From contig CM022673.1 of NCBI GenBank assembly GCA_012295275.1, positions 19,344,001-19,408,000 on the forward strand: a stretch of 64,000 bases of DNA. The letters are read 5' to 3'. This document shows, piece after piece, positions 288 to 64,000 of the stretch (position 1 is its first letter; each line of letters starts with the position of its first letter). The position numbers and the translations under genes were made by a program. Origin of the DNA: Chrysomallon squamiferum (lineage: Eukaryota > Animalia > Mollusca). A model generated the notes under the pieces. It was not told the origin of the DNA. It saw nothing but the letters and a program-made list of their open reading frames with translations, and searched no databases.

Positions 288-329
288 GTCCGGTTACAAG
301 CCCTACGATATCTGTCTCATCTGTCACAG
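288..329 (+). CDS. Array A copy 1, PTS exon, 42 nt, phase 1-1 (GPVTSPTISVSSVT)
   Basis: tttaccag|GTCCGG...GTCACAG|gtaatg; length divisible by 3; S/T/P-rich. Confidence 0.85.
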
Positions 330-2782
330 GTAATGTCTTTCTAAAACAAGATTGAAGATATAATAATTTAGAAACTATCTGGAATTCTTTTTTAATGTTT
401 AAGTGGTTCTTTATCGGTGTTTTAAACAGCTTTAGTTACAACGATTAGTTGTTTTCATTATTTCAAACTTCTATGAAACTTCAGATCCGATTAAGGTGAT
501 AACACCTTGTTATTGTTTTTTTTCTAGTTTGATAGGGTTTTCTACCTAAACCTTTGATGGTTTTCGTCTTAGTTTTTTCTGTGGTTTGACTTCTTTTTAT
601 GTTCATTTGTTTGTTTGTTTAATTGATGACGTTTCACTGAAACCCGCATTGTATCTCTCAAACAGAATGTGAACTCACTGATATGATGGGCGAACCCGGT
701 TCACCAAAACAACCTCTTAAGTACGATGCAGACACGAAAACGGCGGTGATAACAGTCGATGGTCCAGTAGAAAAGGTTACGAAAATACCTGAAGATGCTA
801 AAGTGTACGTCACGAAGGTAAGAATTTAGCGGATGGTTAACGGAAACCTAACTCATTTACATTTAATGCATCGATTATTCTCGATGTTGAAAGGCAGTTG
901 CTAATTTAAATGTTTGTTTAATGAATAGGATAAACCAACTCCAGGTCCTGAGCAGAAAGTGTTTTATCCTGCCGGTAATCCTCCAAAGGACGGTACGACA
1001 ATTACGGTAACAGTCAAGGATAAAACAGGTATTTATTAATCAGTTATTATAACTATGAAAATAGAAAATCGCGATTGGTAGCAGTAAATATTAACAAGGA
1101 AAGTAGCGAATAAGTAAATAAATGAGGAAAATGTACTGATAATATAGAATAAATAAGAGAAACTTAAAAATAAAATGGTGCAAAATCTACCATCAGTACA
1201 AACATACATTGTTCCTACTGTTACTTTCTGTTTAAAACAGGTACTGAAAAGCAATCAACAGCAGAAGTGAAGACTGAGGGTAATATTGTTACACTGAAAC
1301 TTCCCAAGGACGAAACATTTGTTAACATCCCACAGCAGCCTGATGTTCTTAAAGTAGAGGAAATAAAACCAACCGTAAGGACATGCGAAATTGATTTGTG
1401 ATTTGTAGAGGTGTGGGGAATAAAAAGTAAAAGAAAACGAAATGAAACAATAAAAAGAAAAAAGAAAAGAAAAAAAATATATAGAGTGTACAAAGAGGTA
1501 TTCTTCTGAATCCACACGGCAGGGAAATAGCCGACGACTGTTACCTAATGTGATACTGATATTCATTCATTTGATCGTACTTAAAACACTAAAGTCTTTC
1601 TTATATTTTCGAGATGAATAACCTATATTATTAATGTTTAATGACACATGTTATTGTGCTTTGTTTTTTGTTTGGCCATGTCCAGAATGGAGAAATTACT
1701 CCGAATGGCGAAGACATTGATAAAATTATAATTACTGGCATCCCCGAAAACAAGTCAAGAGATATCGACGTGTTGGTTTGTAAGAAAGGTAAGATAATAA
1801 TGAATGATTGATGTAATTCATGTTTGATTTACCCACTTTCTGAAACGTAATTTCATGTATTGCTACTATTCCCCAACGACGAGGAAGAGATGATTTAACA
1901 AAACAAAGAAATATGGAAGATACAGTCAAATATATAAAGGTGGTTACGTTGAAAACGGCAATTGTACAGTTCAATCACAGGATCATAAAACTAATTTGTG
2001 CAAATATTGTGTTTCTTCTGACAACGAAGTGTATTTTGTGAATTTAGTTTCGAAAAGTAAAGTTAATTGTATAAATACGGGAACTGACTTTTGACCGGTT
2101 TCATTTCTATATTACAGTTCCAACAACAACCACGCCAGGAACAACAATTTCGCGTACTACAGGTAATCATTTCACATTAATTTGTATCGGTTACAAATCT
2201 TGAAGTCATTCGTTTAGCCGTCCGTGGTAGAGTACGGCAATGATTTGTTCAGGAGAAATATAGAACTAATTGTCGTTATAAACTTACATCTCTTCAAAAT
2301 AATTGAAAAAGTGTGCAAGAAAAGTAACTGCAGTCGTTTTCTTAATATCATTCCAGGTACGTCACCAACGACTGGAACAGGCCCGACATCAACTGTTTCT
2401 AGTGCAACCACTTCAGGTAACTCAACTATGATTGTTTCACTTGTAAACAATTCGATCTCTATCGATTCATTATAAAGAAAGTCGAGGACGGATTATGCAT
2501 TTCGAGAGAAACAGAATAATTTATTTCTTTATTTATATATTACTAATTAAGTAATTAGGAAAACAAAGAAAACAGTAGTAGCAGCAGCAGTAGTAAAACG
2601 GACACATCTGATAGAAGAAGATCATGGTTCATTTAGAACGAGTATGATTACGGCAAAGCCTTTCTGACTGAGATCGAAAAGTTTCAATAAAATAAATTGG
2701 AACGACAAAAGCTATAAAAAAGTTCCAAATACTACTACTACTACTACTACTAACAGTAATTATAATAGTAACAATAATGATG

Positions 2783-2842
<60 letters not shown>

Positions 2843-5800
2843 GAAATAGAAATAGAAATAATAATACTAATACTACTACTACTAATACTACTACTAATAA
2901 TAATAACAATAGTAATAATAATTACAATAATAATAATAAAAGAACAACAACAACAACAATACTCGTCGTATAGTAGGAACAATACAAAAAAAATACATTA
3001 GGTTACAGATGATTCTACATTAGAAACAGACTCTAGCGAATTTTGATTAATAGTTGATTAGTAGTTTGCTGTGAACTTGTACCGATCGTTTTCACTGTCC
3101 CTCAAACATCATGGATTTTGTTAATATTATTCCAGGTACGTCACCAACGACTGGAACAGGCCCAACATCAACTGTTTCTAGTGCAACCACTCCAGGTAAC
3201 TCAACTATAATTGTTTCGCTTGGAAACAGTTTGATCTCTATCGATGCAGTTATATAAAGAAAGTCGAGGAGGGATTATCCATTTTTCAGTGAAACTTATC
3301 TTTTTGTTTGTTTCTTTCTTTCAGTAGTTCTAATTAATTAATAATTTAATTAATAATTATTTTTTTTTTGTTGTTGTTGAGATTTGAATCTTGAACAAGA
3401 ACAGTATATTTTCATTATGTAATGTGTGGCAACGGAATTATCTTAGTTTCATAGTTGTTGTTAGTTTTGATATCTCTTCGAAAGAGAATTTACGGTTCTG
3501 TCTACAAATGGTACCTTCGTTAAAAGCTATTTCTTTGTCCATTTACCAGGTCCGGTTACAAGCCCTACGATATCTGTCTCATCTGTCACAGGTAATGTCT
3601 TTCTAAAACAAGATTGAAGATATAATAATTTAGAAACTATCTGGAATTCTTTTTTAATGTTTAAGTGGTTCTTTATCGGTGTTTTAAACAGCTTTAGTTA
3701 CAACGATTAGTTGTTTTCATTATTTCAAACTTCTATGAAACTTCAGATCCGATTAAGGTGATAACACCTTGTTATTGTTGCTTTTTTCTAGTTTGATAGG
3801 GTTTTCTACCTAAACCTTTGATGGTTTTCGTCTTAGTTTTTTTCTGTGGTTTGACTTCTTTTTTTATGTTCATTTGTTTGTTTGTTTAATTGATGACGTT
3901 TCACTGAAACCCGCATTGTATCTCTCAAACAGAATGTGAACTCACTGATATGATGGGCGAACCCGGTTCACCAAAACAACCTCTTAAGTACGATGCAGAC
4001 ACGAAAACGGCGGTGATAACAGTCGATGGTCCAGTAGAAAAGGTTACGAAAATACCTGAAGATGCTAAAGTGTACGTCACGAAGGTAAGAATTTAGCGGA
4101 TGGTTAACGGAAACCTAACTCATTTACATTTAATGCATCGATTATTCTCGATGTTGAAAGGCAGTTGCTAATTTAAATGTTTGTTTAATGAATAGGATAA
4201 ACCAACTCCAGGTCCTGAGCAGAAAGTGTTTTATCCTGCCGGTAATCCTCCAAAGGACGGTACGACAATTACGGTAACAGTCAAGGATAAAACAGGTATT
4301 TATTAATCAGTTATTATAACTATGAAAATAGAAAATCGCGATTGGTAGCAGTAAATATTAACAAGGAAAGTAGCGAATAAGTAAATAAATGAGGAAAATG
4401 TACTGATAATATAGAATAAATAAGAGAAACTTAAAAATAAAATGGTGCAAAATCTACCATCAGTACAAACACATTGTTCCTACTGTTACTTTCTGTTTAA
4501 AACAGGTACTGAAAAGCAATCAACAGCAGAAGTGAAGACTGAGGGTAATATTGTTACACTGAAACTTCCCAAGGACGAAACATTTGTTAACATCCCACAG
4601 CAGCCTGATGTTCTTAAAGTAGAGGAAATAAAACCAACCGTAAGGACATGCGAAATTGATTTGTGATTTGTAGAGGTGTGGGGAATAAAAAGTAAAAGAA
4701 AACGAAATGAAACAATAAAAAGAAAAAAGAAAAGAAAAAAAAATATATAGAGTGTACAAAGAGGTATTCTTCTGAATCCACACGGCAGGGAAATAGCCGA
4801 CGACTGTTACCTAATGTGATACTGATATTCATTCATTTGATCGTACTTAAAAACACTAAAGTCTTTCTTATATTTTCGAGATGAATAACCTATATTATTA
4901 ATGTTTAATGACACATGTTATTGTGCTTTGTTTTTTGTTTGGCCATGTCCAGAATGGAGAAATTACTCCGAATGGCGAAGACATTGATAAAATTATAATT
5001 ACTGGCATCCCCGAAAACAAGTCAAGAGATATCGACGTGTTGGTTTGTAAGAAAGGTAAGATAATAATGAATGATTGATGTAATTCATGTTTGATTTACC
5101 CACTTTCTGAAACGTAATTTCATGTATTGCTACTATTCCCCAACGACGAGGAAGAGATGATTTAACAAAACAAAGAAATATGGAAGATACAGTCAAATAT
5201 ATAAAGGTGGTTACGTTGAAAACGGCAATTGTACAGTTCAATCACAGGATCATAAAACTAATTTGTGCAAATATTGTGTTTCTTCTGACAACGAAGTGTA
5301 TTTTGTGAATTTAGTTTCGAAAAGTAAAGTTAATTGTATAAATACGGGAACTGACTTTTGACCGGTTTCATTTCTATATTACAGTTCCAACAACAACCAC
5401 GCCAGGAACAACAATTTCGCGTACTACAGGTAATCATTTCACATTAATTTGTATCGGTTACAAATCTTGAAGTCATTCGTTTAGCCGTCCGTGGTAGAGT
5501 ACGGCAATGATTTGTTCAGGAGAAATATAGAACTAATTGTCGTTATAAACTTACATCTCTTCAAAATAATTGAAAAAGTGTGCAAGAAAAGTAACTGCAG
5601 TCGTTTTCTTAATATCATTCCAGGTACGTCACCAACGACTGGAACAGGCCCGACATCAACTGTTTCTAGTGCAACCACTTCAGGTAACTCAACTATGATT
5701 GTTTCACTTGTAAACAATTCGATCTCTATCGATTCATTTGCATAAAGAAAGTCGAGGACGGATTATGCATTTCGAGAGAAACAGAATAATTTATTTCTTT

Positions 5801-6057
5801 ATTTATATATTACTAATTAAGTAATTAGGAAAACAAAGAAAACAGTAGTAGCAGCAGCAGTAGTAAAACGGACACATCTGATAGAAGAAGATCACGGTTC
5901 ATTTAGAACGAGTATGATTACGGCAAAGCCTTTCTGACTGAGATCGAAAAGTTTCAATAAAATAAATTGGAACGACAAAAGCTATAAAAAGTTCCAAATA
6001 CTACTACTGCTACTACTACTAACAGTAATTATAATAATAGTAATAATGATGATAATA

Positions 6058-6109
<52 letters not shown>

Positions 6110-7975
6110 GAAATAGAAATAGAAATAATACTAATACTACTACTACTAATACTACTACTAATAATAATAACAATAGTAATAATAATTACAATAATAATAA
6201 TAAAAGAACAACAACAACAACAATACTCGTATAGTAGGAACAATAAAAAAATACATTAGGTTACAGATGATTCTACATTAGAAACAGACTCTAGCGAATT
6301 TTGATTAATAGTTGATTAGTAGTTTGCTGTGAACTTGTACCGATCGTTTTCACTGTCCCTCAAACATCATGGATTTTTGTTAATATTATTCCAGGTACGT
6401 CACCAACGACTGGAACAGGCCCAACATCAACTGTTTCTAGTGCAACCACTCCAGGTAACTCAACTATAATTGTTTCGCTTGGAAACAGTTTGATCTCTAT
6501 CGATGCAGTTATATAAAGAAAGTCGAGGAGGGATTATCCATTTTTCAGTGAAACTTATCTTTTTGTTTGTTTCTTTCTTTCAGTAGTTCTAATTAATTAA
6601 TAATTTAATTAATAATTATTATTTTTTGTTGTTGTTGAGATTTGAATCTTGAACAAGAACAGTATATTTTCATTATGTAATGTGTGGCAACGGAATTATC
6701 TTAGTTTCATAGTTGTTGTTAGTTTTTTGATATCTCTTCGAAAGAGAATTTACGGTTCTGTCTACAAATGGTACCTTCGTTAAAAGCTATTTCTTTGTCC
6801 ATTTACCAGGTCCGGTTACAAGCCCTACGATATCTGTCTCATCTGTCACAGGTAATGTCTTTCTAAAACAAGATTGAAGATATAATAATTTAGAAACTAT
6901 CTGGAATTCTTTTTTAATGTTTAAGTGGTTCTTTATCGGTGTTTTAAACAGCTTTAGTTACAACGATTAGTTGTTTTCATTATTTCAAACTTCTATGAAA
7001 CTTCAGATCCGATTAAGGTGATAACACCTTGTTATTGTTGCTTTTCTAGTTTGATAGGGTTTTCTACCTAAACCTTTGATGGTTTTCGTCTTAGTTTTTT
7101 TTCTGTGGTTTGACTTCTTTTTATGTTCATTTGTTTGTTTGTTTAATTGATGACGTTTCACTGAAACCCGCATTGTATCTCTCAAACAGAATGTGAACTC
7201 ACTGATATGATGGGCGAACCCGGTTCACCAAAACAACCTCTTAAGTACGATGCAGACACGAAAACGGCGGTGATAACAGTCGATGGTCCAGTAGAAAAGG
7301 TTACGAAAATACCTGAAGATGCTAAAGTGTACGTCACGAAGGTAAGAATTTAGCGGATGGTTAACGGAAACCTAACTCATTTACATTTAATGCATCGATT
7401 ATTCTCGATGTTGAAAGGCAGTTGCTAATTTAAATGTTTGTTTAATGAATAGGATAAACCAACTCCAGGTCCTGAGCAGAAAGTGTTTTATCCTGCCGGT
7501 AATCCTCCAAAGGACGGTACGACAATTACGGTAACAGTCAAGGATAAAACAGGTATTTATTAATCAGTTATTATAACTATGAAAATAGAAAATCGCGATT
7601 GGTAGCAGTAAATATTAACAAGGAAAGTAGCGAATAAGTAAATAAATGAGGAAAATGTACTGATAATATAGAATAAATAAGAGAAACTTAAAAATAAAAT
7701 GGTGCAAAATCTACCATCAGTACAAACATACATTGTTCCTACTGTTACTTTCTGTTTAAAACAGGTACTGAAAAGCAATCAACAGCAGAAGTGAAGACTG
7801 AGGGTAATATTGTTACACTGAAACTTCCCAAGGACGAAACATTTGTTAACATCCCACAGCAGCCTGATGTTCTTAAAGTAGAGGAAATAAAACCAACCGT
7901 AAGGACATGCGAAATTGATTTGTGATTTGTAGAGGTGTGGGGAATAAAAAGTAAAAAAAAAACGAAAATGAAAAA

Positions 7976-8011
<36 letters not shown>

Positions 8012-9319
8012 TAGAGTGTACAAAGAGGTATTCTTCTGAATCCACACGGCAGGGAAATAGCCGACGACTGTTACCTAATGTGATACTGATATTCATTCAT
8101 TTGATCGTACTTAAAACACTAAAGTCTTTCTTATATTTTCGAGATGAATAACCTATATTATTAATGTTTAATGACACATGTTATTGTGCTTTGTTTTTTG
8201 TTTGGCCATGTCCAGAATGGAGAAATTACTCCGAATGGCGAAGACATTGATAAAATTATAATTACTGGCATCCCCGAAAACAAGTCAAGAGATATCGACG
8301 TGTTGGTTTGTAAGAAAGGTAAGATAATAATGAATGATTGATGTAATTCATGTTTGATTTACCCACTTTCTGAAACGTAATTTCATGTATTGCTACTATT
8401 CCCCAACGACGAGGAAGAGATGATTTAACAAAACAAAGAAATATGGAAGATACAGTCAAATATATAAAGGTGGTTACGTTGAAAACGGCAATTGTACAGT
8501 TCAATCACAGGATCATAAAACTAATTTGTGCAAATATTGTGTTTCTTCTGACAACGAAGTGTATTTTGTGAATTTAGTTTCGAAAAGTAAAGTTAATTGT
8601 ATAAATACGGGAACTGACTTTTGACCGGTTTCATTTCTATATTACAGTTCCAACAACAACCACGCCAGGAACAACAATTTCGCGTACTACAGGTAATCAT
8701 TTCACATTAATTTGTATCGGTTACAAATCTTGAAGTCATTCGTTTAGCCGTCCGTGGTAGAGTACGGCAATGATTTGTTCAGGAGAAATATAGAACTAAT
8801 TGTCGTTATAAACTTACATCTCTTCAAAATAATTGAAAAAGTGTGCAAGAAAAGTAACTGCAGTCGTTTTCTTAATATCATTCCAGGTACGTCACCAACG
8901 ACTGGAACAGGCCCGACATCAACTGTTTCTAGTGCAACCACTTCAGGTAACTCAACTATGATTGTTTCACTTGTAAAAACAATTCGATCTCTATCGATTC
9001 ATTTGCATAAAGAAAGTCGAGGACGGATTATGCATTTCGAGAGAAACAGAATAATTTATTTCTTTATTTATATATTACTAATTAAGTAATTAGGAAAACA
9101 AAGAAAACAGTAGTAGCAGCAGCAGTAGTAAAACGGACACATCTGATAGAAGAAGATCATGGTTCATTTAGAACGAGTATGATTACGGCAAAGCCTTTCT
9201 GACTGAGATCGAAAAGTTTCAATAAAATAAATTGGAACGACAAAAGCTATAAAAAGTTCCAAATACTACTACTGCTACTACTACTACTAACAGTAATTAT
9301 AATAGTAACAATAATGATG

Positions 9320-9388
<69 letters not shown>

Positions 9389-12300: not shown

Positions 12301-12591
12301 TATGCATTTCGAGAGAAACAGAATAATTTATTTCTTTATTTATATATTACTAATTAAGTAATTAGGAAAACAAAGAAAACAGTAGTAGCAGCAGCAGTAG
12401 TAAAACGGACACATCTGATAGAAGAAGATCATGGTTCATTTAGAACGAGTATGATTACGGCAAAGCCTTTCTCTGGACTGAGATCGAAAAGTTTCAATAA
12501 AATAAATTGGAACGACAAAAGCTATAAAAAGTTCCAAATACTACTACTGCTACTACTACTAACAGTAATTATAATAGTAACAATAATGATG

Positions 12592-12657
<66 letters not shown>

Positions 12658-15600: not shown

Positions 15601-15872
15601 TATTTCTTTATTTATATATTACTAATTAAGTAATTAGGAAAACAAAGAAAACAGTAGTAGCAGCAGCAGTAGTAAAACGGACACATCTGATAGAAGAAGA
15701 TCACGGTTCATTTAGAACGAGTATGATTACGGCAAAGCCTTTCTGACTGAGATCGAAAAGTTTCAATAAAATAAATTGGAACGACAAAAGCTATAAAAAG
15801 TTCCAAATACTACTACTGCTACTACTACTAACAGTAATTATAATAGTAACAATAATGATGATAATAATAATC

Positions 15873-15932
<60 letters not shown>

Positions 15933-18900: not shown

Positions 18901-19134
18901 AAGTAATTAGGAAAACAAAGAAAACAGTAGTAGCAGCAGCAGTAGTAAAACGGACACATCTGATAGAAGAAGATCATGGTTCATTTAGAACGAGTATGAT
19001 TACGGCAAAGCCTTTCTGACTGAGATCGAAAAGTTTCAATAAAATAAATTGGAACGACAAAAGCTATAAAAAAGTTCCAAATACTACTACTGCTACTACT
19101 ACTAACAGTAATTATAATAGTAACAATAATGATG

Positions 19135-19191
<57 letters not shown>

Positions 19192-23006: not shown

Positions 23007-23053
<47 letters not shown>

Positions 23054-23880: not shown

Positions 23881-23965
<85 letters not shown>

Positions 23966-24789: not shown

Positions 24790-24850
<61 letters not shown>

Positions 24851-25672: not shown

Positions 25673-25739
<67 letters not shown>

Positions 25740-39159: not shown

Positions 39160-39214
<55 letters not shown>

Positions 39215-43285: not shown

Positions 43286-43486
43286 ACACTTAATGCATTT
43301 AGGTTCGTGTTTCAGTATTATTATGTAAATTCCAAATACAATTAAATTTAACTCTCTTCTTTTTGTTTTTAATTTCAGAGGAAGAGATAACAACAACAGG
43401 TTTGTTGATTTTTGATTTAGTTATCTTTACGATAAAACAAATGATGACATCAAGTTCCTAAGAATATTGCGAACAACTTTCAACTG

Positions 43487-43518
<32 letters not shown>

Positions 43519-45797: not shown

Positions 45798-45873
<76 letters not shown>

Positions 45874-48704: not shown

Positions 48705-48739
<35 letters not shown>

Positions 48740-50494: not shown

Positions 50495-50530
<36 letters not shown>

Positions 50531-52287: not shown

Positions 52288-52323
<36 letters not shown>

Positions 52324-54078: not shown

Positions 54079-54115
<37 letters not shown>

Positions 54116-55871
54116 CCAGAGAAAAATGCGTAACAATAAAAGAATCTTGTTATATTAGTAGACACGCCTATGTAAAACAAAAGTAAACATAACATACAAA
54201 AGCAATTGGTAATAAATCAGAAGATTTGTTAACAGCTTACCAACCATTCTAAGATTTTTCTATGAAATGGAAGAAATCTTATGCTTGCGTACACGGCGTT
54301 CAGAGTAACATTGGTCGGTGAAGTTAACGTAAGGTAATGTACTTTGAGCACGATTCCGATGACGCAAGCCTTGCAGAAAAAGTGTAGCAAAAACAAACAC
54401 TGAAAGAGAGGAAAGACGAACCAAACAAAAGGGGAAACAAACGAATGAATTAATATATCATGTATGAGACCTACTTTAATCAAGTATTTATTTTCTTGTT
54501 TCAGTGTCTTCAACGACAACACCCACTGTAGGAACAACTGTTAGTGCCACTCCTAGCGTCAGTGGAACAACACCTAGTGTCACAGGACCAACACCTAGTG
54601 TCACAGGACCAACACCTAGTGTCAGTGGAACAACACCTAGTGTCAGTGCGACAACTCCTTTCGGTATGACTGGCTTCATGATTTAAGCAATTTTATGAAA
54701 CCTTCGATCATTTTTCAGTTATAACAATGATAGACTTTAATGCTGTCTTTCTAAGTAAACGCTCTTTATGGATTTGCTGTTCTGAGTGGAAATTTAATTA
54801 TATATTTTTTTTTTTCGTATAACCTAATTTTTCATGGTGTTAACCCTTTATGTTTGCTCACTGAAAGGACATCGTTTGTGTCTGTTCGATTCACCAAGTA
54901 TGGATGTAGGAAAACTGTATAGTGGAATTTCATTTTATTTTCAAGTATGCGGCAAGGACATGAGCCCTGTTTCACCGAATGACTACAATGTGAAACCATC
55001 TAAGACAGCAACGTTTCCAGATAAGGACACGGAAGTAACCGTAACTTTAGAGACCACCACTGACGAAACAGTCTGGTACAAAGTCACCTTCGATGCTCCC
55101 GATATAATCACTGCTGTGGTTTTCACTGTTGGTGACAAAAACGTGAGTATTCAGTAAAATGTTATAAATCCTTGGTTTTAATGTCCGAGTACCGTATGCA
55201 TATCTTGCTACGTTTAATATATAATATCACTATTATTGAACGAGTGTCTTCTCAGTCTGTATTCATATTCGTCTGCAGTATTTATATTGTAACTGGAGTT
55301 AACTTAGTGACGAAACCTTTTCCCCTTCTCGTTAAAGGTCAATGGAAAACTGGAAAATGGGAAATTTGTGTTTGAAACTGACAAAAATGGATTGAAAGGA
55401 AAGACTCTTACAATAAAACTAACAAGCTCCGTGCCAGGACCTGCGTCTGTAACGCTCGACAATATGGAAGTGACGGCTTGCCAGAAAGGTATGTTCTCCA
55501 ACATGTATAAAAATGTTAGTTTTGTTTCAGGTGTTACAAAAAAGAGATTTCAGTATTCTTTTCAAAAATCAAGAATTAACGTGTGCTTTTGGTGAAAGGT
55601 GGTGTTCACAATTAAGAAAAGAGAAAGTGAACTAACGTTTTGCTGTACACTACTCCATTCAAGATGTATCTGTACCAGTAAGAACGGAATTAGCAGATAC
55701 CTTTAGAATAGTCAAACCAGCTGCACTGAAAACTATTTTGTTGAAGATACAACATGCGTAAATGCGTGAACTTTCTTCTGGTGAATCTGTTTGTCTATTT
55801 CCTTGGTATTTGTATATCTATAATTTGCGTAATCACCTGCAGTTAAATGATCAGCATTTATAATGCGAAAA

Positions 55872-55916
<45 letters not shown>

Positions 55917-57676
55917 CCAGAGAAAAATGCGTAACAATAAAAGAATCTTGTTATATTAGTAGACACGCCTATGTAAAACAAAAGTAAACATAACATACAA
56001 AAGCAATTGGTAATAAATCAGAAGATTTGTTAACAGCTTACCAACCATTCTAAGATTTTTCTATGAAATGGAAGAAATCTTATGCTTGCGTACACGGCGT
56101 TCAGAGTAACATTGGTCGGTGAAGTTAACGTAAGGTAATGTACTTTGAGCACGATTCCGATGACGCAAGCCTTGCAGCAAAAAAAGTGTAGCAAAAACAA
56201 ACACTGAAAGAGAGGAAAGACGAACCAAACAAAAGGGGAAACAAACGAATGAATTAATATATCATGTATGAGACCTACTTTAATCAAGTATTTATTTTCT
56301 TGTTTCAGTGTCTTCAACGACAACACCCACTGTAGGAACAACTGTTAGTGCCACTCCTAGCGTCAGTGGAACAACACCTAGTGTCACAGGACCAACACCT
56401 AGTGTCACAGGACCAACACCTAGTGTCAGTGGAACAACACCTAGTGTCAGTGCGACAACTCCTTTCGGTATGACTGGCTTCATGATTTAAGCAATTTTAT
56501 GAAACCTTCGATCATTTTTCAGTTATAACAATGATAGACTTTAATGCTGTCTTTCTAAGTAAACGCTCTTTATGGATTTGCTGTTCTGAGTGGAAATTTA
56601 ATTATATATTTTTTTTTTTTCGTATAACCTAATTTTTCATGGTGTTAACCCTTTATGTTTGCTCACTGAAAGGACATCGTTTGTGTCTGTTCGATTCACC
56701 AAGTATGGATGTAGGAAAACTGTATAGTGGAATTTCATTTTATTTTCAAGTATGCGGCAAGGACATGAGCCCTGTTTCACCGAATGACTACAATGTGAAA
56801 CCATCTAAGACAGCAACGTTTCCAGATAAGGACACGGAAGTAACCGTAACTTTAGAGACCACCACTGACGAAACAGTCTGGTACAAAGTCACCTTCGATG
56901 CTCCCGATATAATCACTGCTGTGGTTTTCACTGTTGGTGACAAAAACGTGAGTATTCAGTAAAATGTTATAAATCCTTGGTTTTAATGTCCGAGTACCGT
57001 ATGCATATCTTGCTACGTTTAATATATAATATCACTATTATTGAACGAGTGTCTTCTCAGTCTGTATTCATATTCGTCTGCAGTATTTATATTGTAACTG
57101 GAGTTAACTTAGTGACGAAACCTTTTCCCCTTCTCGTTAAAGGTCAATGGAAAACTGGAAAATGGGAAATTTGTGTTTGAAACTGACAAAAATGGATTGA
57201 AAGGAAAGACTCTTACAATAAAACTAACAAGCTCCGTGCCAGGACCTGCGTCTGTAACGCTCGACAATATGGAAGTGACGGCTTGCCAGAAAGGTATGTT
57301 CTCCAACATGTATAAAAATGTTAGTTTTGTTTCAGGTGTTACAAAAGAGATTTCAGTATTCTTTTCAAAAATCAAGAATTAACGTGTGCTTTTGGTGAAA
57401 GGTGGTGTTCACAATTAAGAAAAAGAGAAAGTGAACTAACGTTTTGCTGTACACTACTCCATTCAAGATGTATCTGTACCAGTAAGAACGGAATTAGCAG
57501 ATACCTTTAGAATAGTCAAACCAGCTGCACTGAAAACTATTTTGTTGAAGATACAACATGCGTAAATGCGTGAACTTTCTTCTGGTGAATCTGTTTGTCT
57601 ATTTCCTTGGTATTTGTATATCTATAATTTGCGTAATCACCTGCAGTTAAATGATCAGCATTTATAATGCGAAAAA

Positions 57677-57716
<40 letters not shown>

Positions 57717-59475
57717 CCAGAGAAAAATGCGTAACAATAAAAGAATCTTGTTATATTAGTAGACACGCCTATGTAAAACAAAAGTAAACATAACATACAA
57801 AAGCAATTGGTAATAAATCAGAAGATTTGTTAACAGCTTACCAACCATTCTAAGATTTTTCTATGAAATGGAAGAAATCTTATGCTTGCGTACACGGCGT
57901 TCAGAGTAACATTGGTCGGTGAAGTTAACGTAAGGTAATGTACTTTGAGCACGATTCCGATGACGCAAGCCTTGCAGAAAAAAAGTGTAGCAAAAACAAA
58001 CACTGAAAGAGAGGAAAGACGAACCAAACAAAAGGGGAAACAAACGAATGAATTAATATATCATGTATGAGACCTACTTTAATCAAGTATTTATTTTCTT
58101 GTTTCAGTGTCTTCAACGACAACACCCACTGTAGGAACAACTGTTAGTGCCACTCCTAGCGTCAGTGGAACAACACCTAGTGTCACAGGACCAACACCTA
58201 GTGTCACAGGACCAACACCTAGTGTCAGTGGAACAACACCTAGTGTCAGTGCGACAACTCCTTTCGGTATGACTGGCTTCATGATTTAAGCAATTTTATG
58301 AAACCTTCGATCATTTTTCAGTTATAACAATGATAGACTTTAATGCTGTCTTTCTAAGTAAACGCTCTTTATGGATTTTGCTGTTCTGAGTGGAAATTTA
58401 ATTATATATTTTTTTTTTTCGTATAACCTAATTTTTCATGGTGTTAACCCTTTATGTTTGCTCACTGAAAGGACATCGTTTTTGTGTCTGTTCGATTCAC
58501 CAAGTATGGATGTAGGAAAACTGTATAGTGGAATTTCATTTTATTTTCAAGTATGCGGCAAGGACATGAGCCCTGTTTCACCGAATGACTACAATGTGAA
58601 ACCATCTAAGACAGCAACGTTTCCAGATAAGGACACGGAAGTAACCGTAACTTTAGAGACCACCACTGACGAAACAGTCTGGTACAAAGTCACCTTCGAT
58701 GCTCCCGATATAATCACTGCTGTGGTTTTCACTGTTGGTGACAAAACGTGAGTATTCAGTAAAATGTTATAAATCCTTGGTTTTAATGTCCGAGTACCGT
58801 ATGCATATCTTGCTACGTTTAATATATAATATCACTATTATTGAACGAGTGTCTTCTCAGTCTGTATTCATATTTCGTCTGCAGTATTTATATTGTAACT
58901 GGAGTTAACTTAGTGACGAAACCTTTTCCCCTTCTCGTTAAAGGTCAATGGAAAACTGGAAAATGGGAAATTTGTGTTTGAAACTGACAAAAATGGATTG
59001 AAAGGAAAGACTCTTACAATAAAACTAACAAGCTCCGTGCCAGGACCTGCGTCTGTAACGCTCGACAATATGGAAGTGACGGCTTGCCAGAAAGGTATGT
59101 TCTCCAACATGTATAAAAATGTTAGTTTTGTTTCAGGTGTTACAAAAGAGATTTCAGTATTCTTTTCAAAAATCAAGAATTAACGTGTGCTTTTGGTGAA
59201 AGGTGGTGTTCACAATTAAGAAAAGAGAAAGTGAACTAACGTTTTGCTGTACACTACTCCATTCAAGATGTATCTGTACCAGTAAGAACGGAATTAGCAG
59301 ATACCTTTAGAATAGTCAAACCAGCTGCACTGAAAACTATTTTGTTGAAGATACAACATGCGTAAATGCGTGAACTTTCTTCTGGTGAATCTGTTTGTCT
59401 ATTTCCTTGGTATTTGTATATCTATAATTTGCGTAATCACCTGCAGTTAAATGATCAGCATTTATAATGCGAAAA

Positions 59476-59523
<48 letters not shown>

Positions 59524-61280
59524 CCAGAGAAAAATGCGTAACAATAAAAGAATCTTGTTATATTAGTAGACACGCCTATGTAAAACAAAAGTAAACATAA
59601 CATACAAAAGCAATTGGTAATAAATCAGAAGATTTGTTAACAGCTTACCAACCATTCTAAGATTTTTCTATGAAATGGAAGAAATCTTATGCTTGCGTAC
59701 ACGGCGTTCAGAGTAACATTGGTCGGTGAAGTTAACGTAAGGTAATGTACTTTGAGCACGATTCCGATGACGCAAGCCTTGCAGAAAAAGTGTAGCAAAA
59801 ACAAACACTGAAAGAGAGGAAAGACGAACCAAACAAAAGGGGAAACAAACGAATGAATTAATATATCATGTATGAGACCTACTTTAATCAAGTATTTATT
59901 TTCTTGTTTCAGTGTCTTCAACGACAACACCCACTGTAGGAACAACTGTTAGTGCCACTCCTAGCGTCAGTGGAACAACACCTAGTGTCACAGGACCAAC
60001 ACCTAGTGTCACAGGACCAACACCTAGTGTCAGTGGAACAACACCTAGTGTCAGTGCGACAACTCCTTTCGGTATGACTGGCTTCATGATTTAAGCAATT
60101 TTATGAAACCTTCGATCATTTTTCAGTTATAACAATGATAGACTTTAATGCTGTCTTTCTAAGTAAACGCTCTTTATGGATTTGCTGTTCTGAGTGGAAA
60201 TTTAATTATATATTTTTTTTTTTTCGTATAACCTAATTTTTCATGGTGTTAACCCTTTATGTTTGCTCACTGAAAGGACATCGTTTGTGTCTGTTCGATT
60301 CACCAAGTATGGATGTAGGAAAACTGTATAGTGGAATTTCATTTTATTTTCAAGTATGCGGCAAGGACATGAGAGCCCTGTTTCACCGAATGACTACAAT
60401 GTGAAACCATCTAAGACAGCAACGTTTCCAGATAAGGACACGGAAGTAACCGTAACTTTAGAGACCACCACTGACGAAACAGTCTGGTACAAAGTCACCT
60501 TCGATGCTCCCGATATAATCACTGCTGTGGTTTTCACTGTTGGTGACAAAAACGTGAGTATTCAGTAAAATGTTATAAATCCTTGGTTTTAATGTCCGAG
60601 TACCGTATGCATATCTTGCTACGTTTAATATATAATATCACTATTATTGAACGAGTGTCTTCTCAGTCTGTATTCATATTCGTCTGCAGTATTTATATTG
60701 TAACTGGAGTTAACTTAGTGACGAAACCTTTTCCCCTTCTCGTTAAAGGTCAATGGAAAACTGGAAAATGGGAAATTTGTGTTTGAAACTGACAAAAATG
60801 GATTGAAAGGAAAGACTCTTACAATAAAACTAACAAGCTCCGTGCCAGGACCTGCGTCTGTAACGCTCGACAATATGGAAGTGACGGCTTGCCAGAAAGG
60901 TATGTTCTCCAACATGTATAAAAATGTTAGTTTTGTTTCAGGTGTTACAAAAGAGATTTCAGTATTCTTTTCAAAAATCAAGAATTAACGTGTGCTTTTG
61001 GTGAAAGGTGGTGTTCACAATTAAGAAAAGAGAAAGTGAACTAACGTTTTGCTGTACACTACTCCATTCAAGATGTATCTGTACCAGTAAGAACGGAATT
61101 AGCAGATACCTTTAGAATAGTCAAACCAGCTGCACTGAAAACTATTTTGTTGAAGATACAACATGCGTAAATGCGTGAACTTTCTTCTGGTGAATCTGTT
61201 TGTCTATTTCCTTGGTATTTGTATATCTATAATTTGCGTAATCACCTGCAGTTAAATGATCAGCATTTATAATGCGAAAA

Positions 61281-61325
<45 letters not shown>

Positions 61326-63085
61326 CCAGAGAAAAATGCGTAACAATAAAAGAATCTTGTTATATTAGTAGACACGCCTATGTAAAACAAAAGTAAACAT
61401 AACATACAAAAGCAATTGGTAATAAATCAGAAGATTTGTTAACAGCTTACCAACCATTCTAAGATTTTTCTATGAAATGGAAGAAATCTTATGCTTGCGT
61501 ACACGGCGTTCAGAGTAACATTGGTCGGTGAAGTTAACGTAAGGTAATGTACTTTGAGCACGATTCCGATGACGCAAGCCTTGCAGAAAAAGTGTAGCAA
61601 AAACAAACACTGAAAGAGAGGAAAGACGAACCAAACAAAAGGGGAAACAAACGAATGAATTAATATATCATGTATGAGACCTACTTTAATCAAGTATTTA
61701 TTTTCTTGTTTCAGTGTCTTCAACGACAACACCCACTGTAGGAACAACTGTTAGTGCCACTCCTAGCGTCAGTGGAACAACACCTAGTGTCACAGGACCA
61801 ACACCTAGTGTCACAGGACCAACACCTAGTGTCAGTGGAACAACACCTAGTGTCAGTGCGACAACTCCTTTCGGTATGACTGGCTTCATGATTTAAGCAA
61901 TTTTATGAAACCTTCGATCATTTTTCAGTTATAACAATGATAGACTTTAATGCTGTCTTTCTAAGTAAACGCTCTTTATGGATTTGCTGTTCTGAGTGGA
62001 AATTTAATTATATATTTTTTTTTTTTTTTTTTCGTATAACCTAATTTTTCATGGTGTTAACCCTTTATGTTTGCTCACTGAAAGGACATCGTTTGTGTCT
62101 GTTCGATTCACCAAGTATGGATGTAGGAAAACTGTATAGTGGAATTTCATTTTATTTTCAAGTATGCGGCAAGGACATGAGCCCTGTTTCACCGAATGAC
62201 TACAATGTGAAACCATCTAAGACAGCAACGTTTCCAGATAAGGACACGGAAGTAACCGTAACTTTAGAGACCACCACTGACGAAACAGTCTGGTACAAAG
62301 TCACCTTCGATGCTCCCGATATAATCACTGCTGTGGTTTTCACTGTTGGTGACAAAAACGTGAGTATTCAGTAAAATGTTATAAATCCTTGGTTTTAATG
62401 TCCGAGTACCGTATGCATATCTTGCTACGTTTAATATATAATATCACTATTATTGAACGAGTGTCTTCTCAGTCTGTATTCATATTCGTCTGCAGTATTT
62501 ATATTGTAACTGGAGTTAACTTAGTGACGAAACCTTTTCCCCTTCTCGTTAAAGGTCAATGGAAAACTGGAAAATGGGAAATTTGTGTTTGAAACTGACA
62601 AAATGGATTGAAAGGAAAGACTCTTACAATAAAACTAACAAGCTCCGTGCCAGGACCTGCGTCTGTAACGCTCGACAATATGGAAGTGACGGCTTGCCAG
62701 AAAGGTATGTTCTCCAACATGTATAAAAATGTTAGTTTTGTTTCAGGTGTTACAAAAGAGATTTCAGTATTCTTTTCAAAAATCAAGAATTAACGTGTGC
62801 TTTTGGTGAAAGGTGGTGTTCACAATTAAGAAAAGAGAAAGTGAACTAACGTTTTGCTGTACACTACTCCATTCAAGATGTATCTGTACCAGTAAGAACG
62901 GAATTAGCAGATACCTTTAGAATAGTCAAACCAGCTGCACTGAAAACTATTTTGTTGAAGATACAACATGCGTAAATGCGTGAACTTTCTTCTGGTGAAT
63001 CTGTTTGTCTATTTCCTTGGTATTTGTATATCTATAATTTGCGTAATCACCTGCAGTTAAATGATCAGCATTTATAATGCGAAAA

Positions 63086-63127
<42 letters not shown>

Positions 63128-64000
63128 CCAGAGAAAAATGCGTAACAATAAAAGAATCTTGTTATATTAGTAGACACGCCTATGTAAAACAAAAGTAAAC
63201 ATAACATACAAAAGCAATTGGTAATAAATCAGAAGATTTGTTAACAGCTTACCAACCATTCTAAGATTTTTCTATGAAATGGAAGAAATCTTATGCTTGC
63301 GTACACGGCGTTCAGAGTAACATTGGTCGGTGAAGTTAACGTAAGGTAATGTACTTTGAGCACGATTCCGATGACGCAAGCCTTGCAGAAAAAGTGTAGC
63401 AAAAACAAACACTGAAAGAGAGGAAACACGAACGAAACGAAAGGGGAAACAAACGAATGAATTAATATATCATGTATGAGACCTACTTTAATCAAGTATT
63501 TAATTTCTTGTTTCAGTGTCTTCAACGACAACACCCACTGTAGGAACAACTGTCAGTGCCACTCCTAGCGTCAGTGGAACAACACCTAGTGTCACAGGAC
63601 CAACACCAACACCTAGTGTCAGTGGAACAACACCTAGTGTCAGTGCGACAACTCCTATCGGTATGACTGGCTTCATGATTTAAGCAATTTTATGAAACCT
63701 TCGATCATTTTTCAGTTATAACAATGATAGACTTTAATGCTGTCTTTCTAAGTAAACGCTCTTTATGGATTTGCTGTTCTGAGTGGAAATTTAAATTATA
63801 CATTTTTTTTTTTTTCGTATAACCTAATTTTTCATGGTGTTAACCCTTTATGTTTGCTCACTGAAAGGACATCGTTTGTGTTCTGTTCGATTCACCAAGT
63901 ATGGATGTAGGAAAACTGTATAGTGGAATTTCATTTTATTTTCAAGGATGCGGCAAGGACATGAGCCCTGTTTCACCGAATGACTACAATGTGAAACCAT
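288..64000 (+). CDS. Partial giant multi-exon mucin-like gene: PTS segments alternating with two-cysteine globular domains; open at both window edges
   Basis: About 127 exons with canonical AG/GT boundaries and mutually compatible phases (55 in array A, 40 in array B, 6 single-copy, 26 in array C). The spliced translation alternates Thr/Ser/Pro/Gly-rich stretches with Cys-bracketed domains. No initiator, signal peptide or terminal stop seen. Isolated 1-2 nt indels occur in a few copies. Confidence 0.88.
666..817 (+). CDS. Array A copy 1, domain exon 1, phase 1-0 (ECELTDMMGEPGSPKQPLKYDADTKTAVITVDGPVEKVTKIPEDAKVYVTK)
   Basis: caaacag|AATGT...ACGAAG|gtaaga; open frame, higher GC than flanks. 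Recurs at 3933, 7190, 10470, 13737, 17014 and 20270. Confidence 0.9.
929..1028 (+). CDS. Array A copy 1, domain exon 2, phase 0-1 (DKPTPGPEQKVFYPAGNPPKDGTTITVTVKDKT)
   Basis: gaatag|GATAAA...AAAACAG|gtattt; 100 nt; phase matches both neighbours. Confidence 0.85.
1241..1374 (+). CDS. Array A copy 1, domain exon 3, phase 1-0 (GTEKQSTAEVKTEGNIVTLKLPKDETFVNIPQQPDVLKVEEIKPT)
   Basis: tttaaaacag|GTACTG...CCAACC|gtaagg; 134 nt. The same peptide is visible in ORF-track entries 4442..4666 and 17522..17749. Confidence 0.88.
1686..1788 (+). CDS. Array A copy 1, domain exon 4, phase 0-1 (NGEITPNGEDIDKIIITGIPENKSRDIDVLVCKK)
   Basis: tgtccag|AATGGA...AAGAAAG|gtaaga; 103 nt; ends in the V-x-V-C-x-K motif shared with the other domains. 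Confidence 0.9.
2118..2162 (+). CDS. Array A copy 1, PTS exon, 45 nt, phase 1-1 (VPTTTTPGTTISRTT)
   Basis: attacag|TTCCAA...ACTACAG|gtaatc. Confidence 0.88.
2357..2416 (+). CDS. Array A copy 1, PTS exon, 60 nt, phase 1-1 (GTSPTTGTGPTSTVSSATTS)
   Basis: cattccag|GTACGT...ACTTCAG|gtaact. Confidence 0.9.
2728..2960. repeat. Compound intronic microsatellite (ACT)n/(AAT)n/(AATAGA)n/(AAC)n, present in array A copies 1-6
   Basis: Directly visible; length differs between copies; source of the poly-Ile and poly-Asn ORFs. Confidence 0.9.
3136..3195 (+). CDS. Array A copy 1, second 60-nt PTS exon, phase 1-1 (GTSPTTGTGPTSTVSSATTP)
   Basis: tattccag|GTACGT...ACTCCAG|gtaact; differs from exon 2357-2416 at two positions. 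Confidence 0.9.
21960..22019 (+). CDS. Last exon of array A, 60 nt (GTSPTTGTGPTSTVSSATTP), hybrid of the two 60-nt exon types
   Basis: Upstream intron and GGCCCG codon context match the first 60-nt exon; the ACTCCAG end and downstream intron (gtaactcaactataattgtttcgcttgg) match the second. Confidence 0.85.
22429..22500 (+). CDS. Array B copy 1, 72-nt PTS exon, phase 1-1 (GTSLTTSPSTGTGSTSTVSSPTTS)
   Basis: tgttacag|GTACCT...ACATCAG|gtaagt (gtaact in later copies). Confidence 0.9.
22792..22851 (+). CDS. Array B copy 1, 60-nt PTS exon, phase 1-1 (GTSPTTGTGPTPSVSSTATP)
   Basis: acttccag|GTACAT...ACACCAG|gtaacc; paralogous to the array A 60-nt exons. Confidence 0.9.
40655..40735 (+). pseudogene. 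Decayed copy of the 72-nt PTS exon
   Basis: actggttcatcatcaactgtttctagtcctactacgTGAgataaa aligns with acaggttcaacatcaactgtttctagtcctacaacatcag|gtaa. TCA has become a TGA stop and the donor GT has become AT. Confidence 0.75.
40851..40918. repeat. 34-bp tandem duplication
   Basis: aaatataaaatataaattaaaatccca(c/g)ctttgg twice, with one mismatch. Confidence 0.9.
41025..41071 (+). pseudogene. Second decayed copy of the 72-nt PTS exon (GTFVTTALSTGTYSS*)
   Basis: aaataatgtttcag|GTACCTTTGTTACTACAGCTCTGAGCACTGGAACA matches aaataatgttacag|GTACCTCTCTTACTACGTCTCCGAGCACAGGAACA. In-frame TGA at 41069-41071; no donor. Confidence 0.78.
41423..41613 (+). CDS. Single-copy domain D1, exon 1, phase 1-0 (VKVCKDDMQPVEKLEFNPKRTISFGDDNVASFTIKATSDAEWNEIRIDVPNRIKRIQIKFGNQE)
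   Basis: Poly-T tract then acag|TAAAAG...CAAGAA|gtaaga; 191 nt; C-x2-D-M-x-P-V motif. Confidence 0.9.
42061..42208 (+). CDS. Single-copy domain D1, exon 2, phase 0-1 (FEANIQNGKAIWTSQREITSQSATVTVTREPDGPSSFNLASVKVVACRK)
   Basis: ttttccttttccttctcaag|TTTGAA...CGAAAGG|gtaaga; 148 nt; ends V-x-A-C-x-K. Not in the ORF track. Confidence 0.9.
42693..42772. repeat. (GA)n microsatellite
   Basis: Directly visible. Confidence 0.98.
43248..43283. repeat. (AT)n microsatellite
   Basis: Directly visible. Confidence 0.97.
43379..43399 (+). CDS. 21-nt microexon, phase 1-1 (EEEITTT)
   Basis: ctctcttctttttgtttttaatttcag|AGGAAGAGATAACAACAACAG|gtttgt; strong pyrimidine tract; frame-preserving. Confidence 0.7.
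43488..43517. repeat. (TG)n microsatellite
   Basis: Directly visible. Confidence 0.97.
44190..44306 (+). CDS. Single-copy PTS exon, 117 nt, phase 1-1 (ETTGGGGETSAQTSTTITSKTSTTITSKTSTTITPKSTT)
   Basis: tttatccag|AAACAA...ACAACAA|gtaagc; internal 24-nt (8-aa) repeat three times. Confidence 0.9.
45500..45699 (+). CDS. Single-copy domain D2, exon 1, phase 1-0 (KLSCTDDMSPVAMEKLKSALPKNVEFGKTNEQIVIAELTSVERIVLFELELSFGKPVTAALSDGTNY)
   Basis: ttttatag|AACTAT...AATTAT|gtgagt; 200 nt; C-x2-D-M-x-P-V motif. Confidence 0.9.
45801..45869. repeat. (CT)n microsatellite in the D2 intron
   Basis: Directly visible. Confidence 0.98.
45935..46088 (+). CDS. Single-copy domain D2, exon 2, phase 0-1 (IPMKSNDKRITFSYTNTDGLNLKNIKLNITKNPEDGPSIQITVNKITACAK)
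   Basis: gcatctag|ATTCCC...GCCAAAG|gtaaca; 154 nt; ends I-x-A-C-x-K. Confidence 0.9.
47820..48480 (+). pseudogene. Diverged, internally deleted older copy of the array C unit
   Basis: Intron homology to the C unit (caatgatagactttaat, aacctaatttttcatggt). Short remnant of the PTS exon at about 48118. Domain exon starts at 48368 (ECCKDMSPVSPNDYDVK) and then jumps to sequence that normally lies ~620 bp downstream. Confidence 0.8.
49129..49287 (+). CDS. Array C copy 1, PTS exon, 159 nt, phase 1-1 (VSSTTTPTVGTTVSATPSVSGTTPSVTGPTPSVTGPTPSVSGTTPSVSATTPI)
   Basis: tgtttcag|TGTCTT...CCTATCG|gtatga; internal 21-nt (7-aa TPSV[ST]G[TP]) repeats. Confidence 0.92.
49571..49767 (+). CDS. Array C copy 1, domain exon 1, phase 1-0 (GCGKDMSPVSPNDYNVKPSKTATFPDKDTEVTVTLETNTDETVWYKVTFDAPDKITAVVFTVGDKN)
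   Basis: ttttcaag|GATGCG...AAAAAC|gtgagt; 197 nt. Confidence 0.92.
49963..50113 (+). CDS. Array C copy 1, domain exon 2, phase 0-1 (VNGKLENEKFVFETDENGLKGKTLTIKLTRSVPGPASVTLDNMEVTACQK)
   Basis: ccttttccccttctcgttaaag|GTCAAT...CAGAAAG|gtatgt; 151 nt; ends V-x-A-C-x-K. Confidence 0.92.
63517..63660 (+). CDS. Array C copy 9, PTS exon variant, 144 nt (15 nt shorter, in frame)
   Basis: GTCACAGGACCAACACCAACACCTAGT replaces two TPSVTGP units; same splice sites; ends CCTATCG|gtatga. Confidence 0.88.
63947..64000 (+). CDS. Array C copy 9, domain exon 1, truncated by the window edge (GCGKDMSPVSPNDYNVKP...)
   Basis: ttttcaag|GATGCGGCAAGGACATG, as in copy 1. Confidence 0.88.

What the first reader, a model, noticed from the sequence alone, without database searches (positions are those of the whole stretch)
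288..64000. Three satellite-like arrays are the coding body of one giant beads-on-a-string mucin-like gene
Seen: every repeat unit contains GT-AG exons whose lengths sum to a multiple of 3 (696, 132 and 507 nt) and whose outer boundaries are phase 1. All units therefore splice into one frame of about 4,200 aa: [domain A + PTS]x7, ~900 aa of pure PTS, D1, linker, D2, then [PTS + domain C]x8+. Known: in mammalian gel-forming mucins (MUC2, MUC5AC, MUC5B) the PTS region is largely encoded by one big central exon and varies by intra-exon VNTR. Inference: here the VNTR unit is a whole exon+intron cassette, so protein length expands or contracts by unequal crossover without breaking frame. Repeat masking would probably hide such a gene from annotation. 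A secreted mucus, adhesive or egg-coat role is plausible but unproven.
Basis: partly seen in the sequence, partly recalled or inferred. Interest (0 to 1): 0.85.

Follow-up and report, generated by a model that had tools for sequence, protein, structure and literature searches.

The report
Mollusc mucin from three exon arrays
Three satellite-looking DNA arrays are spliced together in RNA as consecutive parts of what is likely one giant mollusc mucus-type protein, with small beads of predicted discoidin fold on likely sugar-coated linkers; genes built by copying exons together with their introns are already known from other mucins and from spider silks.

Summary
The gene is real. Three arrays (units about 3,265, 897 and 1,800 bp) hold 126 GT-AG exons, about 4,160 codons. 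RNA contigs join 17 of 21 predicted junction types, including both array-to-array links; the one non-RNA run laid shows none. One 839-nt contig runs from array B through D1 and D2 into array C. Correction: as assembled, 5 of 34 complete units carry 1-2 base indels that break the frame; no run showed them, so they are likely assembly errors. D1, D2 and C are one domain family with relatives in the snail Gigantopelta aegis (32-55% identical), where RefSeq splits the region into two models. The relative's domain folds confidently (pLDDT 94.6) as a discoidin/F5-8 type C-like sandwich below Pfam's cut-off. Domain A stays unassigned. Near-identical inner units and diverged edge units fit unequal crossover; copy-number variation is not shown, nor are the gene's ends. 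The design has close precedents (Schistosoma SmPoMuc, Argiope MaSp2, LPA KIV-2, chicken Muc13), and this scan noted similar genes before on other DNA (octopus, sea urchin, shark). New member of a known kind.

The parts
1..287 (+). Last intron of a further A unit upstream; the array runs off the window's 5' end
   Evidence: repeats at +3,262-3,265; sequence
288..22019 (+). Array A: 7 units starting 288, 3550, 6810, 10089, 13357, 16631, 19890; 8 exons each (42,152,100,134,103,45,60,60 nt), last unit has 7; encodes a 162-aa two-cysteine domain A plus PTS linker; a (TAA)n tract in each full unit
   Evidence: junctions A1 to A7 and unit-to-unit joined in 3 of 3 RNA runs
666..1788 (+). Domain A exons of unit 1 (666-817, 929-1028, 1241-1374, 1686-1788; 489 nt, phase 1 to phase 1); family unassigned
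   Evidence: whole block skipped in frame in contigs of X2 and X3
17277..18511 (+). A unit 6 exons with three single-base indels (99, 102, 46 nt), likely assembly errors
   Evidence: not seen in table 4
22429..39907 (+). Array B: 20 units of two PTS exons (72 + 60 nt = 44 aa) with an (ATA)n tract in each unit; 880 aa of pure PTS; exons and part of an intron related to the PTS exons of array A
   Evidence: B1>B2 joint and loose ends
40684..41075 (+). Two decayed B1-like exon relics with stop codons, skipped by the 39907>41423 splice
41423..42208 (+). Domain D1 (exons 41423-41613, 42061-42208), 112 aa, two cysteines
   Evidence: joined in 4 of 4 RNA runs; 32% to P0002 domain 1
43379..44306 (+). 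Linker exons L1 (43379-43399, 21 nt) and L2 (44190-44306, with an internal 24-nt repeat; a 48-nt shorter form in RNA)
   Evidence: tables 5, 5c, 8
45500..46088 (+). Domain D2 (exons 45500-45699, 45935-46088), 117 aa, two cysteines
   Evidence: joined in 4 of 4 RNA runs; 55% to P0002 domain 2
48137..49128 (+). Decayed partial C unit (84% identity, most of the domain deleted) inside the D2b-C1 intron
   Evidence: skipped by 46088>49129
49129..64000 (+). Array C: units starting 49129, 50921, 52713, 54505, 56309, 58108, 59913, 61715, 63517; exons 159 (PTS) + 197 + 151 nt (115-aa domain C); runs off the 3' end; indels in units 3, 6, 7, 8
   Evidence: domain and unit-to-unit joints in 4 of 4 RNA runs; 45% to P0001 repeats

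Best explanation
The window is the spliced middle of what is likely one giant, probably secreted mollusc mucin-like protein, in which predicted discoidin-fold (F5/8 type C-like) beads and an unassigned domain A sit on likely O-glycosylated PTS linkers, and whose three arrays likely grew by unequal crossover of whole exon+intron cassettes. Shown: exons, phases, splicing between all blocks, homology of D1, D2 and C to each other and to a snail protein pair. Predicted: the jelly-roll fold (from the relative's domains), a disulfide between the two terminal cysteines. Inferred: because every cassette starts and ends in phase 1, gain, loss or skipping of a cassette keeps the frame; misaligned recombination homogenises inner units, leaves edge units diverged and strands decayed relics at the borders; the PTS stretches would form stiff hydrated spacers and the many beads would give multivalent binding to glycans or to each other in a mucus or matrix. 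Inferred: the 7 indels are assembly errors.
For: 125 of 125 introns GT-AG. 17 of 21 junction types listed as joints in RNA contigs, 1 more as loose ends, 2 by exact length inside spanning contigs; run X5 shows no splice joint over 19700-22950. Single contigs of 839-859 nt span D1-L-D2 with array B letters before it (X2, X3, X4; table 8). D1, D2, C homologous, z 7.6-24 against 2,000 shuffles. Profile search of 1.84 billion proteins: top hits Gigantopelta aegis XP_041347247.1 (E 2e-55, 'mucin-5AC-like, partial') and XP_041347248.1 (E 2e-22), each on a 108,329-bp contig; D2 55%, C 45%, D1 32% identical, while the snail's own repeats are 99-100% alike. Model pLDDT 94.6; top structural matches are CBM32, DOC, discoidin I, F-lectin, DDR, factor VIII C and neuropilin b domains, e.g. 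2v72 Z 8.4, rmsd 2.9, 104 aligned; Atlas structure search of the D2-like domain gives F5_F8_type_C parts first, TM 0.62, under its naming bar. F5_F8 domains are typical of lophotrochozoan mucin-like proteins (PMC4948705). Edge units differ most: B unit 1 by 14-21 and C unit 1 by 22-25 substitutions, inner units mostly by 0-5.
Against: No single read or contig covers the gene; the joints into arrays have only 25-28 letters on the short side (plus 2-6 shared), under the tool's 30-letter caution, and A>B is seen in 1 of 3 RNA runs. All RNA runs come from one study. The A7>A8 junction was not listed. The frame as assembled stops at codon 1,251. Neither end of the gene is in view, so signal peptide, VWD, cystine knot or membrane anchor are unknown. 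No window exon reaches a Pfam or NCBIfam cut-off and F5_F8_type_C scores 21.4 bits on P0001 against a cut-off of 28.2. The fold was predicted for the relative, not for the window's own domain; Foldseek gave no match at E<=0.001 and Z of 7-9 is near what unrelated models reach. Domain A does not match the C/D profile. Exons are more uniform than introns only in array A (p 0.008), not in B or C. No length allele of any array was shown.
Confidence: 0.75

Rival explanations
1. Same spliced gene, but a membrane-tethered or matrix (shell, scale, egg-case) glycoprotein rather than a secreted mucus mucin.
For: The ends are outside the window and no genome is held; PTS-plus-domain strings also occur in tethered mucins such as chicken Muc13 (PMC1552070).
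Against: No transmembrane or other terminal exon in the window; F5_F8 domains go with gel-forming mucin-like proteins in Lophotrochozoa (PMC4948705). Neither point is decisive.
Confidence: 0.2
2. Units are homogenised mainly by gene conversion at fairly fixed copy number, and length variety comes from alternative splicing of phase-symmetric blocks.
For: In-frame skip of the whole domain A block (19931>21721, GT-AG) in 2 of 3 RNA runs; every unit carries a microsatellite, as in SmPoMuc, where conversion was favoured (PMC2576457); frog FIM-C.1 is polymorphic by splicing (PMC7177656).
Against: The edge-to-centre gradient in B and C is what the unequal-crossover model predicts and what SmPoMuc lacked; decayed relics flank the arrays. 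The skip could also be one genomic unit lacking the domain.
Confidence: 0.2
3. Array A belongs to a separate neighbouring gene, or this allele is a partly broken gene truncated by real frameshifts.
For: A>B joint in only 1 of 3 RNA runs with a 25-letter side; domain A unlike C/D; 7 indels as assembled; RefSeq has two models for the relative.
Against: The A>B joint is GT-AG at the predicted bases and in frame; no stop, start or terminal exon lies between A and B; A and B PTS exons are related; indels sit in short runs, the same one twice in an A5 run, and are absent from all contigs laid.
Confidence: 0.08
4. The arrays are non-coding satellite DNA or an assembly artefact, and the exons are chance GT-AG matches.
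For: 80% of the span is intron; copy numbers of near-identical arrays are often mis-assembled.
Against: Exact splicing in RNA and none in run X5; X5 itself shows the unit-to-unit genomic join of array A; protein relatives in another species. Only the exact copy numbers remain doubtful.
Confidence: 0.02

Closest known systems
Gigantopelta aegis XP_041347247.1 (mucin-5AC-like, partial) and XP_041347248.1 (uncharacterized), RefSeq models
   Same: Same domain family; D1-like then D2-like domain in one model, near-identical C-like domains alternating with PTS in the other; 32-55% identity.
   Different: Automatic models, split in two and partial; PTS repeat sequence differs; no relative of domain A or of array B was looked for or found; their exon structure was not seen.
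Lophotrochozoan gel-forming mucin-like / hemolectin-type proteins with F5_F8 domains (PMC4948705; section 15 read, passages seen)
   Same: PTS stretches with discoidin-type domains in a lophotrochozoan.
   Different: Domains here are short (112-117 aa) and fall below the Pfam cut-off; no VWD, C8, TIL or CysD in the window; ends unknown. The paper's supplementary figure S4 was not seen and may list related architectures.
Schistosoma mansoni SmPoMuc genes (PMC2576457; passages seen)
   Same: Mucin repeats encoded by about 1-kb exon+intron units, up to 20 copies, microsatellite in each unit, introns over 93% alike, concerted evolution: close to array B.
   Different: One 27-nt exon per unit in a small multigene family; no folded domain in the unit; no edge gradient; here three different arrays lie in one gene.
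Argiope MaSp2 silk genes (PMC9779670; passages seen)
   Same: Two-exon, two-intron core units, homogenised introns (mean 97.6% excluding first and last).
   Different: Silk protein, no PTS or discoidin-like beads.
Human LPA kringle IV type 2 VNTR (PMC11462820; passages seen)
   Same: Two-exon folded domain with its introns as the repeat unit, like array C.
   Different: Copy number (1 to about 40) is measured there and only inferred here; unrelated domain.
Chicken Muc13 and MUC2 (PMC1552070, PMC3549977; passages seen)
   Same: PTS region spread over many repeated exons.
   Different: Vertebrate mucins with SEA or CysD/VWD domains.

Membership tests
Gel-forming mucins | Long Pro/Thr/Ser-rich repeat (PTS) domain | tested here: met
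   914-aa block with 37% T, 27% S, 14% P and no stop; linker exons 50-83% PTS
Gel-forming mucins | N-terminal VWD-C8-TIL units | not testable with these tools
   Gene start is outside the window; no genome held
Gel-forming mucins | Signal peptide; C-terminal cystine knot; no membrane anchor | not testable with these tools
   Both ends outside the window
Gel-forming mucins | Dense O-glycosylation and polymer formation | not testable with these tools
   Needs biochemistry
F5/8 type C (discoidin) domain | Galactose-binding-domain-like beta sandwich | tested here: met
   On relatives' domains: model pLDDT 94.6; CBM32, DOC, discoidin I, factor VIII C among top matches, Z 7.1-9.7, rmsd 2.6-3.8, 85-111 aligned; Atlas TM 0.62. 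This shows the superfamily fold, not the family
F5/8 type C (discoidin) domain | Pfam PF00754 score above the curated cut-off | tested here: not met
   21.4 bits against 28.2 on P0001, no stretch passing alone; no hit on 11 window exons or on the 12 rows of A5. Window exons are half domains, so their test is weak
F5/8 type C (discoidin) domain | Cysteine at each end of the domain (feature recalled, not from a call) | tested here: met
   Exactly two cysteines, at the ends of A, D1, D2 and C; the bond itself was not checked
F5/8 type C (discoidin) domain | Sugar-, lipid- or collagen-binding site | not tested
   A shared fold shows no function
Exon+intron cassette VNTR genes (SmPoMuc, LPA KIV-2, MaSp2 kind) | Tandem unit made of exons with their introns, frame-symmetric | tested here: met
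   29 of 34 complete units are multiples of 3 as assembled, phase 1 at both ends; unit-to-unit splices in RNA
Exon+intron cassette VNTR genes (SmPoMuc, LPA KIV-2, MaSp2 kind) | Introns homogenised along with exons | tested here: met
   Mean pairwise intron difference 0.4% (A, 6 units), 0.8% (B, 19), 0.4% (C, 8)
Exon+intron cassette VNTR genes (SmPoMuc, LPA KIV-2, MaSp2 kind) | Unit number varies between alleles | tested here: inconclusive
   Only contigs were available; their depth is no copy number

The most novel reading that the evidence does not exclude
A mollusc mucin whose lectin-like valency is tuned on three time scales: three independently homogenised exon+intron arrays that turn over wholesale between individuals (run X2's C contig carries three exon variants found in none of the window's 8 copies), in-frame skipping of whole domains, and an uncatalogued compact discoidin-like family plus an unassigned domain A that would bind microbial or self glycans at the mucus surface.
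Probability: 0.15. Interest if true: 0.7.

Novelty: new member of a known kind. Interest (0 to 1): 0.38.

Why it matters
It recovers, with RNA support, the body of a gene of over 4,000 codons that looks like satellite DNA and whose nearest relative is annotated only as two fragments. It defines a compact discoidin-like domain family that Pfam misses, useful for annotating mollusc mucus and matrix proteins. Three different cassette arrays with edge gradients, relics and differing array-wide variants between samples make it a good natural test of concerted evolution. The building principle itself is known, so the value is a clean example, not a new mechanism.

Tried and rejected
No genome is held, so flanks could not be read. 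Word-seeded protein searches with exon D2a, exon C2 and a four-exon alignment found nothing among proteins of about 115-2,000 aa; weak evidence, as the profile search later found relatives. Of 13 profile hits, 2 are the named snail proteins and 5 are unnamed exon-sized pieces that align from the M-x-P-V start; 6 were dropped: four long proteins with bacterial-type Ig, fn3, Calx-beta or InlB-type repeats and two short self-repeating sequences. Weak Pfam hints of an Ig-like or MSP fold on exon C2 were set aside after the fold search. Folding the first exon alone failed (pLDDT 51) and was not searched. PDB sequence searches gave nothing below E 0.03. Metagenome scan: 49 pattern matches, none confirmed. 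Hydrophobic-moment test for beta structure was not significant (z up to 1.8). No long ORF of another gene or transposon on either strand (13 stop-to-stop frames of 110-168 aa). Domain A: no match to the C/D profile, outscored by many of 500 shuffles; it was not folded, since no spliced relative was in hand. Contig depth ratios of array to unique exons (about 23-34 for A, 6-31 for C in X2-X4, by hand) would hint at longer and variable arrays, but the tool states that depth is no copy number, so they are not used. Two loose-end sequences from run X2 are not in the window. Paper searches for a description of this protein: 0 papers; 0 papers; 7 listed, passages of one read; none describes it; subscription journals are not covered. 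PMC6553539 (passages) and PMC10138644 (passages) gave no precedent; PMC2042186 is not held.
Full report
Observation. A self-comparison shows three tandem arrays with periods near 3,265, 897 and 1,800 bp, separated by unique DNA at about 39.9-49.1 kb. Reading the units and mapping exon borders to every copy gives 126 exons; all 125 introns are GT-AG, 111-3,040 bp long, and exons make up 20% of the span. Modal exon sums per unit are 696, 132 and 507 nt, each unit starting and ending in phase 1. The total is 12,481 nt, about 4,160 codons. Both ends of the window lie inside arrays, so the gene is longer.

Correction. Seven exons carry 1-2 base indels: three in A unit 6 and one each in C units 3, 6, 7 and 8. 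So 5 of 34 complete units break frame as assembled, and the first stop is at codon 1,251. The indels lie in short base or dinucleotide runs; the same loss occurs twice in a run of five A. No exon indel is listed for four RNA runs laid on an intact C unit (from 5 in 100) or for three RNA runs and run X5 laid on an intact A unit (from 1 in 100). Contigs drop rare variants and the individuals may differ, so assembly error is likely, not proven.

Splicing. One search found 4 RNA runs of one study and 1 run of unrecorded kind. Of 21 junction types in the model, 17 are listed as joints at the predicted bases, B2>B1 shows as loose ends, D1b>L1>L2 is fixed by length inside spanning contigs (19 unplaced letters in X2, as expected for the 21-nt exon), and A7>A8 is not listed. 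The links between blocks are 22019>22429 (1 of 3 RNA runs), 39907>41423 (4 of 4) and 46088>49129 (2 of 4, a third to copy 2). Contigs of 839-859 nt in X2, X3 and X4 carry D1, the linker and D2 in one piece. The short sides of joints into arrays are 25-28 letters plus 2-6 shared, below the tool's caution of 30, as expected for contigs that end at a repeat; their GT-AG ends and exact positions carry the weight. Run X5 covers introns and exons alike, shows no splice joint and shows the genomic unit-to-unit join of array A. RNA adds three things: an in-frame skip of all four domain A exons (2 of 3 runs), an L2 form 48 nt shorter (3 of 4 runs; X1 has both), and in X2 a further PTS-coding exon end before A1 that is not in the window.

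The domains. D1, D2 and C (112-117 aa) are homologous (z 7.6-24); each has two exons (phase 1-0-1) and two terminal cysteines. Domain A (162 aa, four exons) shares the terminal cysteines but not significant similarity. No window exon reaches a Pfam or NCBIfam cut-off. A profile of the three first exons, run against 1.84 billion proteins, gave 13 hits: two RefSeq models of the snail Gigantopelta aegis with consecutive accession numbers, each on a 108,329-bp contig, five unnamed exon-sized pieces, and six rows dropped as unrelated repeats. One model has a D1-like and a D2-like domain in the same order (32% and 55% identical), the other four C-like domains between PTS linkers (45% identical to C; the three complete ones 99-100% to each other). 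The window is therefore likely molluscan, by homology only. The snail domain, folded with an alignment of 12 rows, gives an all-beta model at pLDDT 94.6. Foldseek finds no match at E<=0.001, but its list and the full structural search are dominated by galactose-binding-domain-like sandwiches: CBM32 (2v72, Z 8.4, rmsd 2.9, 104 aligned), DOC, discoidin I, F-lectin, DDR, factor VIII C, neuropilin b; best Z 9.7. The Atlas structure search on the D2-like domain gives F5_F8_type_C parts first (TM 0.62, below its naming bar), and Pfam F5_F8_type_C scores 21.4 bits on the four-repeat protein against a cut-off of 28.2. Z values of this size are not far above background, but three routes point to one superfamily. 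Lang et al. report F5_F8 domains as characteristic of lophotrochozoan mucin-like proteins (PMC4948705, section 15 read).

How it likely works. Shown: phase-symmetric cassettes are spliced in series. Inferred: any cassette can be gained, lost or skipped without a frameshift. Introns are as uniform as exons (0.4-0.8% mean difference). Edge units diverge most in B and C, decayed relics flank the arrays and are spliced out, and array B's exons and part of an intron resemble the PTS cassette of array A. This is the pattern expected from unequal crossover (model as described in PMC2576457, passages). Within-species identity of repeats against 45% between species, and three exon variants in X2's single C contig that none of the window's 8 copies has, fit continuing array-wide turnover; a collapsed contig shows only the majority. 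At protein level the PTS stretches would be O-glycosylated spacers and the beads would bind glycans or each other multivalently in mucus or matrix; neither is tested.

Comparison. It works like a mucin with exon-cassette repeats. Membership of the gel-forming mucins cannot be tested without the ends. The domain has the discoidin-like fold but fails the Pfam family cut-off. The gene design is described for SmPoMuc (about 1-kb exon+intron units, up to 20 copies, microsatellites), Argiope MaSp2, LPA KIV-2, chicken Muc13 and MUC2, all seen as passages. Earlier notes of this scan describe similar genes in an octopus, a sea urchin and a shark; they are unchecked leads, one of which pointed to the SmPoMuc paper. 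No paper on this protein came up.

Verdict. A real and well-supported hidden gene body; new member of a known kind. What is particular is three different arrays in one gene, a compact discoidin-like family missing from Pfam, and an unassigned domain A. Interest 0.38.

Noticed in passing
window 19931>21721 (any A unit): RNA contigs of X2 and X3 skip all four domain A exons in frame at GT-AG ends; either alternative splicing or a unit outside the window that lacks the domain.
   Followed up: partly
window 44190-44306: Linker exon L2 holds an ordinary intra-exon 24-nt repeat with a 48-nt shorter form in RNA; run X1 shows both forms.
   Followed up: yes
window 49571-50113: Run X2's C contig has variants at 49652, 49674 and 50037 absent from all 8 window copies, while X3 and X4 match the window's inner copies; X1 has both sets.
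   Followed up: partly
before window 19890 (exon A1) and behind 49251 (exon C1): Loose ends in run X2 that are not in the window: likely the exon that enters array A from upstream, and a different C1 form or exit from array C.
   Followed up: partly
window 63517-63660: The ninth C1 exon is 15 nt shorter, in frame, and shares a last codon with the edge unit 1; the array's far edge may be near.
   Followed up: no
window 40684-41075 and 48137-49128: Decayed exon and unit relics at array borders, skipped by splicing.
   Followed up: yes
window 22474-22818 and equivalent B introns: RNA runs hold contigs that keep the B1-B2 intron at a depth above other introns; intron retention, unspliced RNA or DNA carry-over from many copies.
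   Followed up: no
all three arrays: Each unit carries an AT-rich trinucleotide microsatellite whose length accounts for most unit-length variation.
   Followed up: partly
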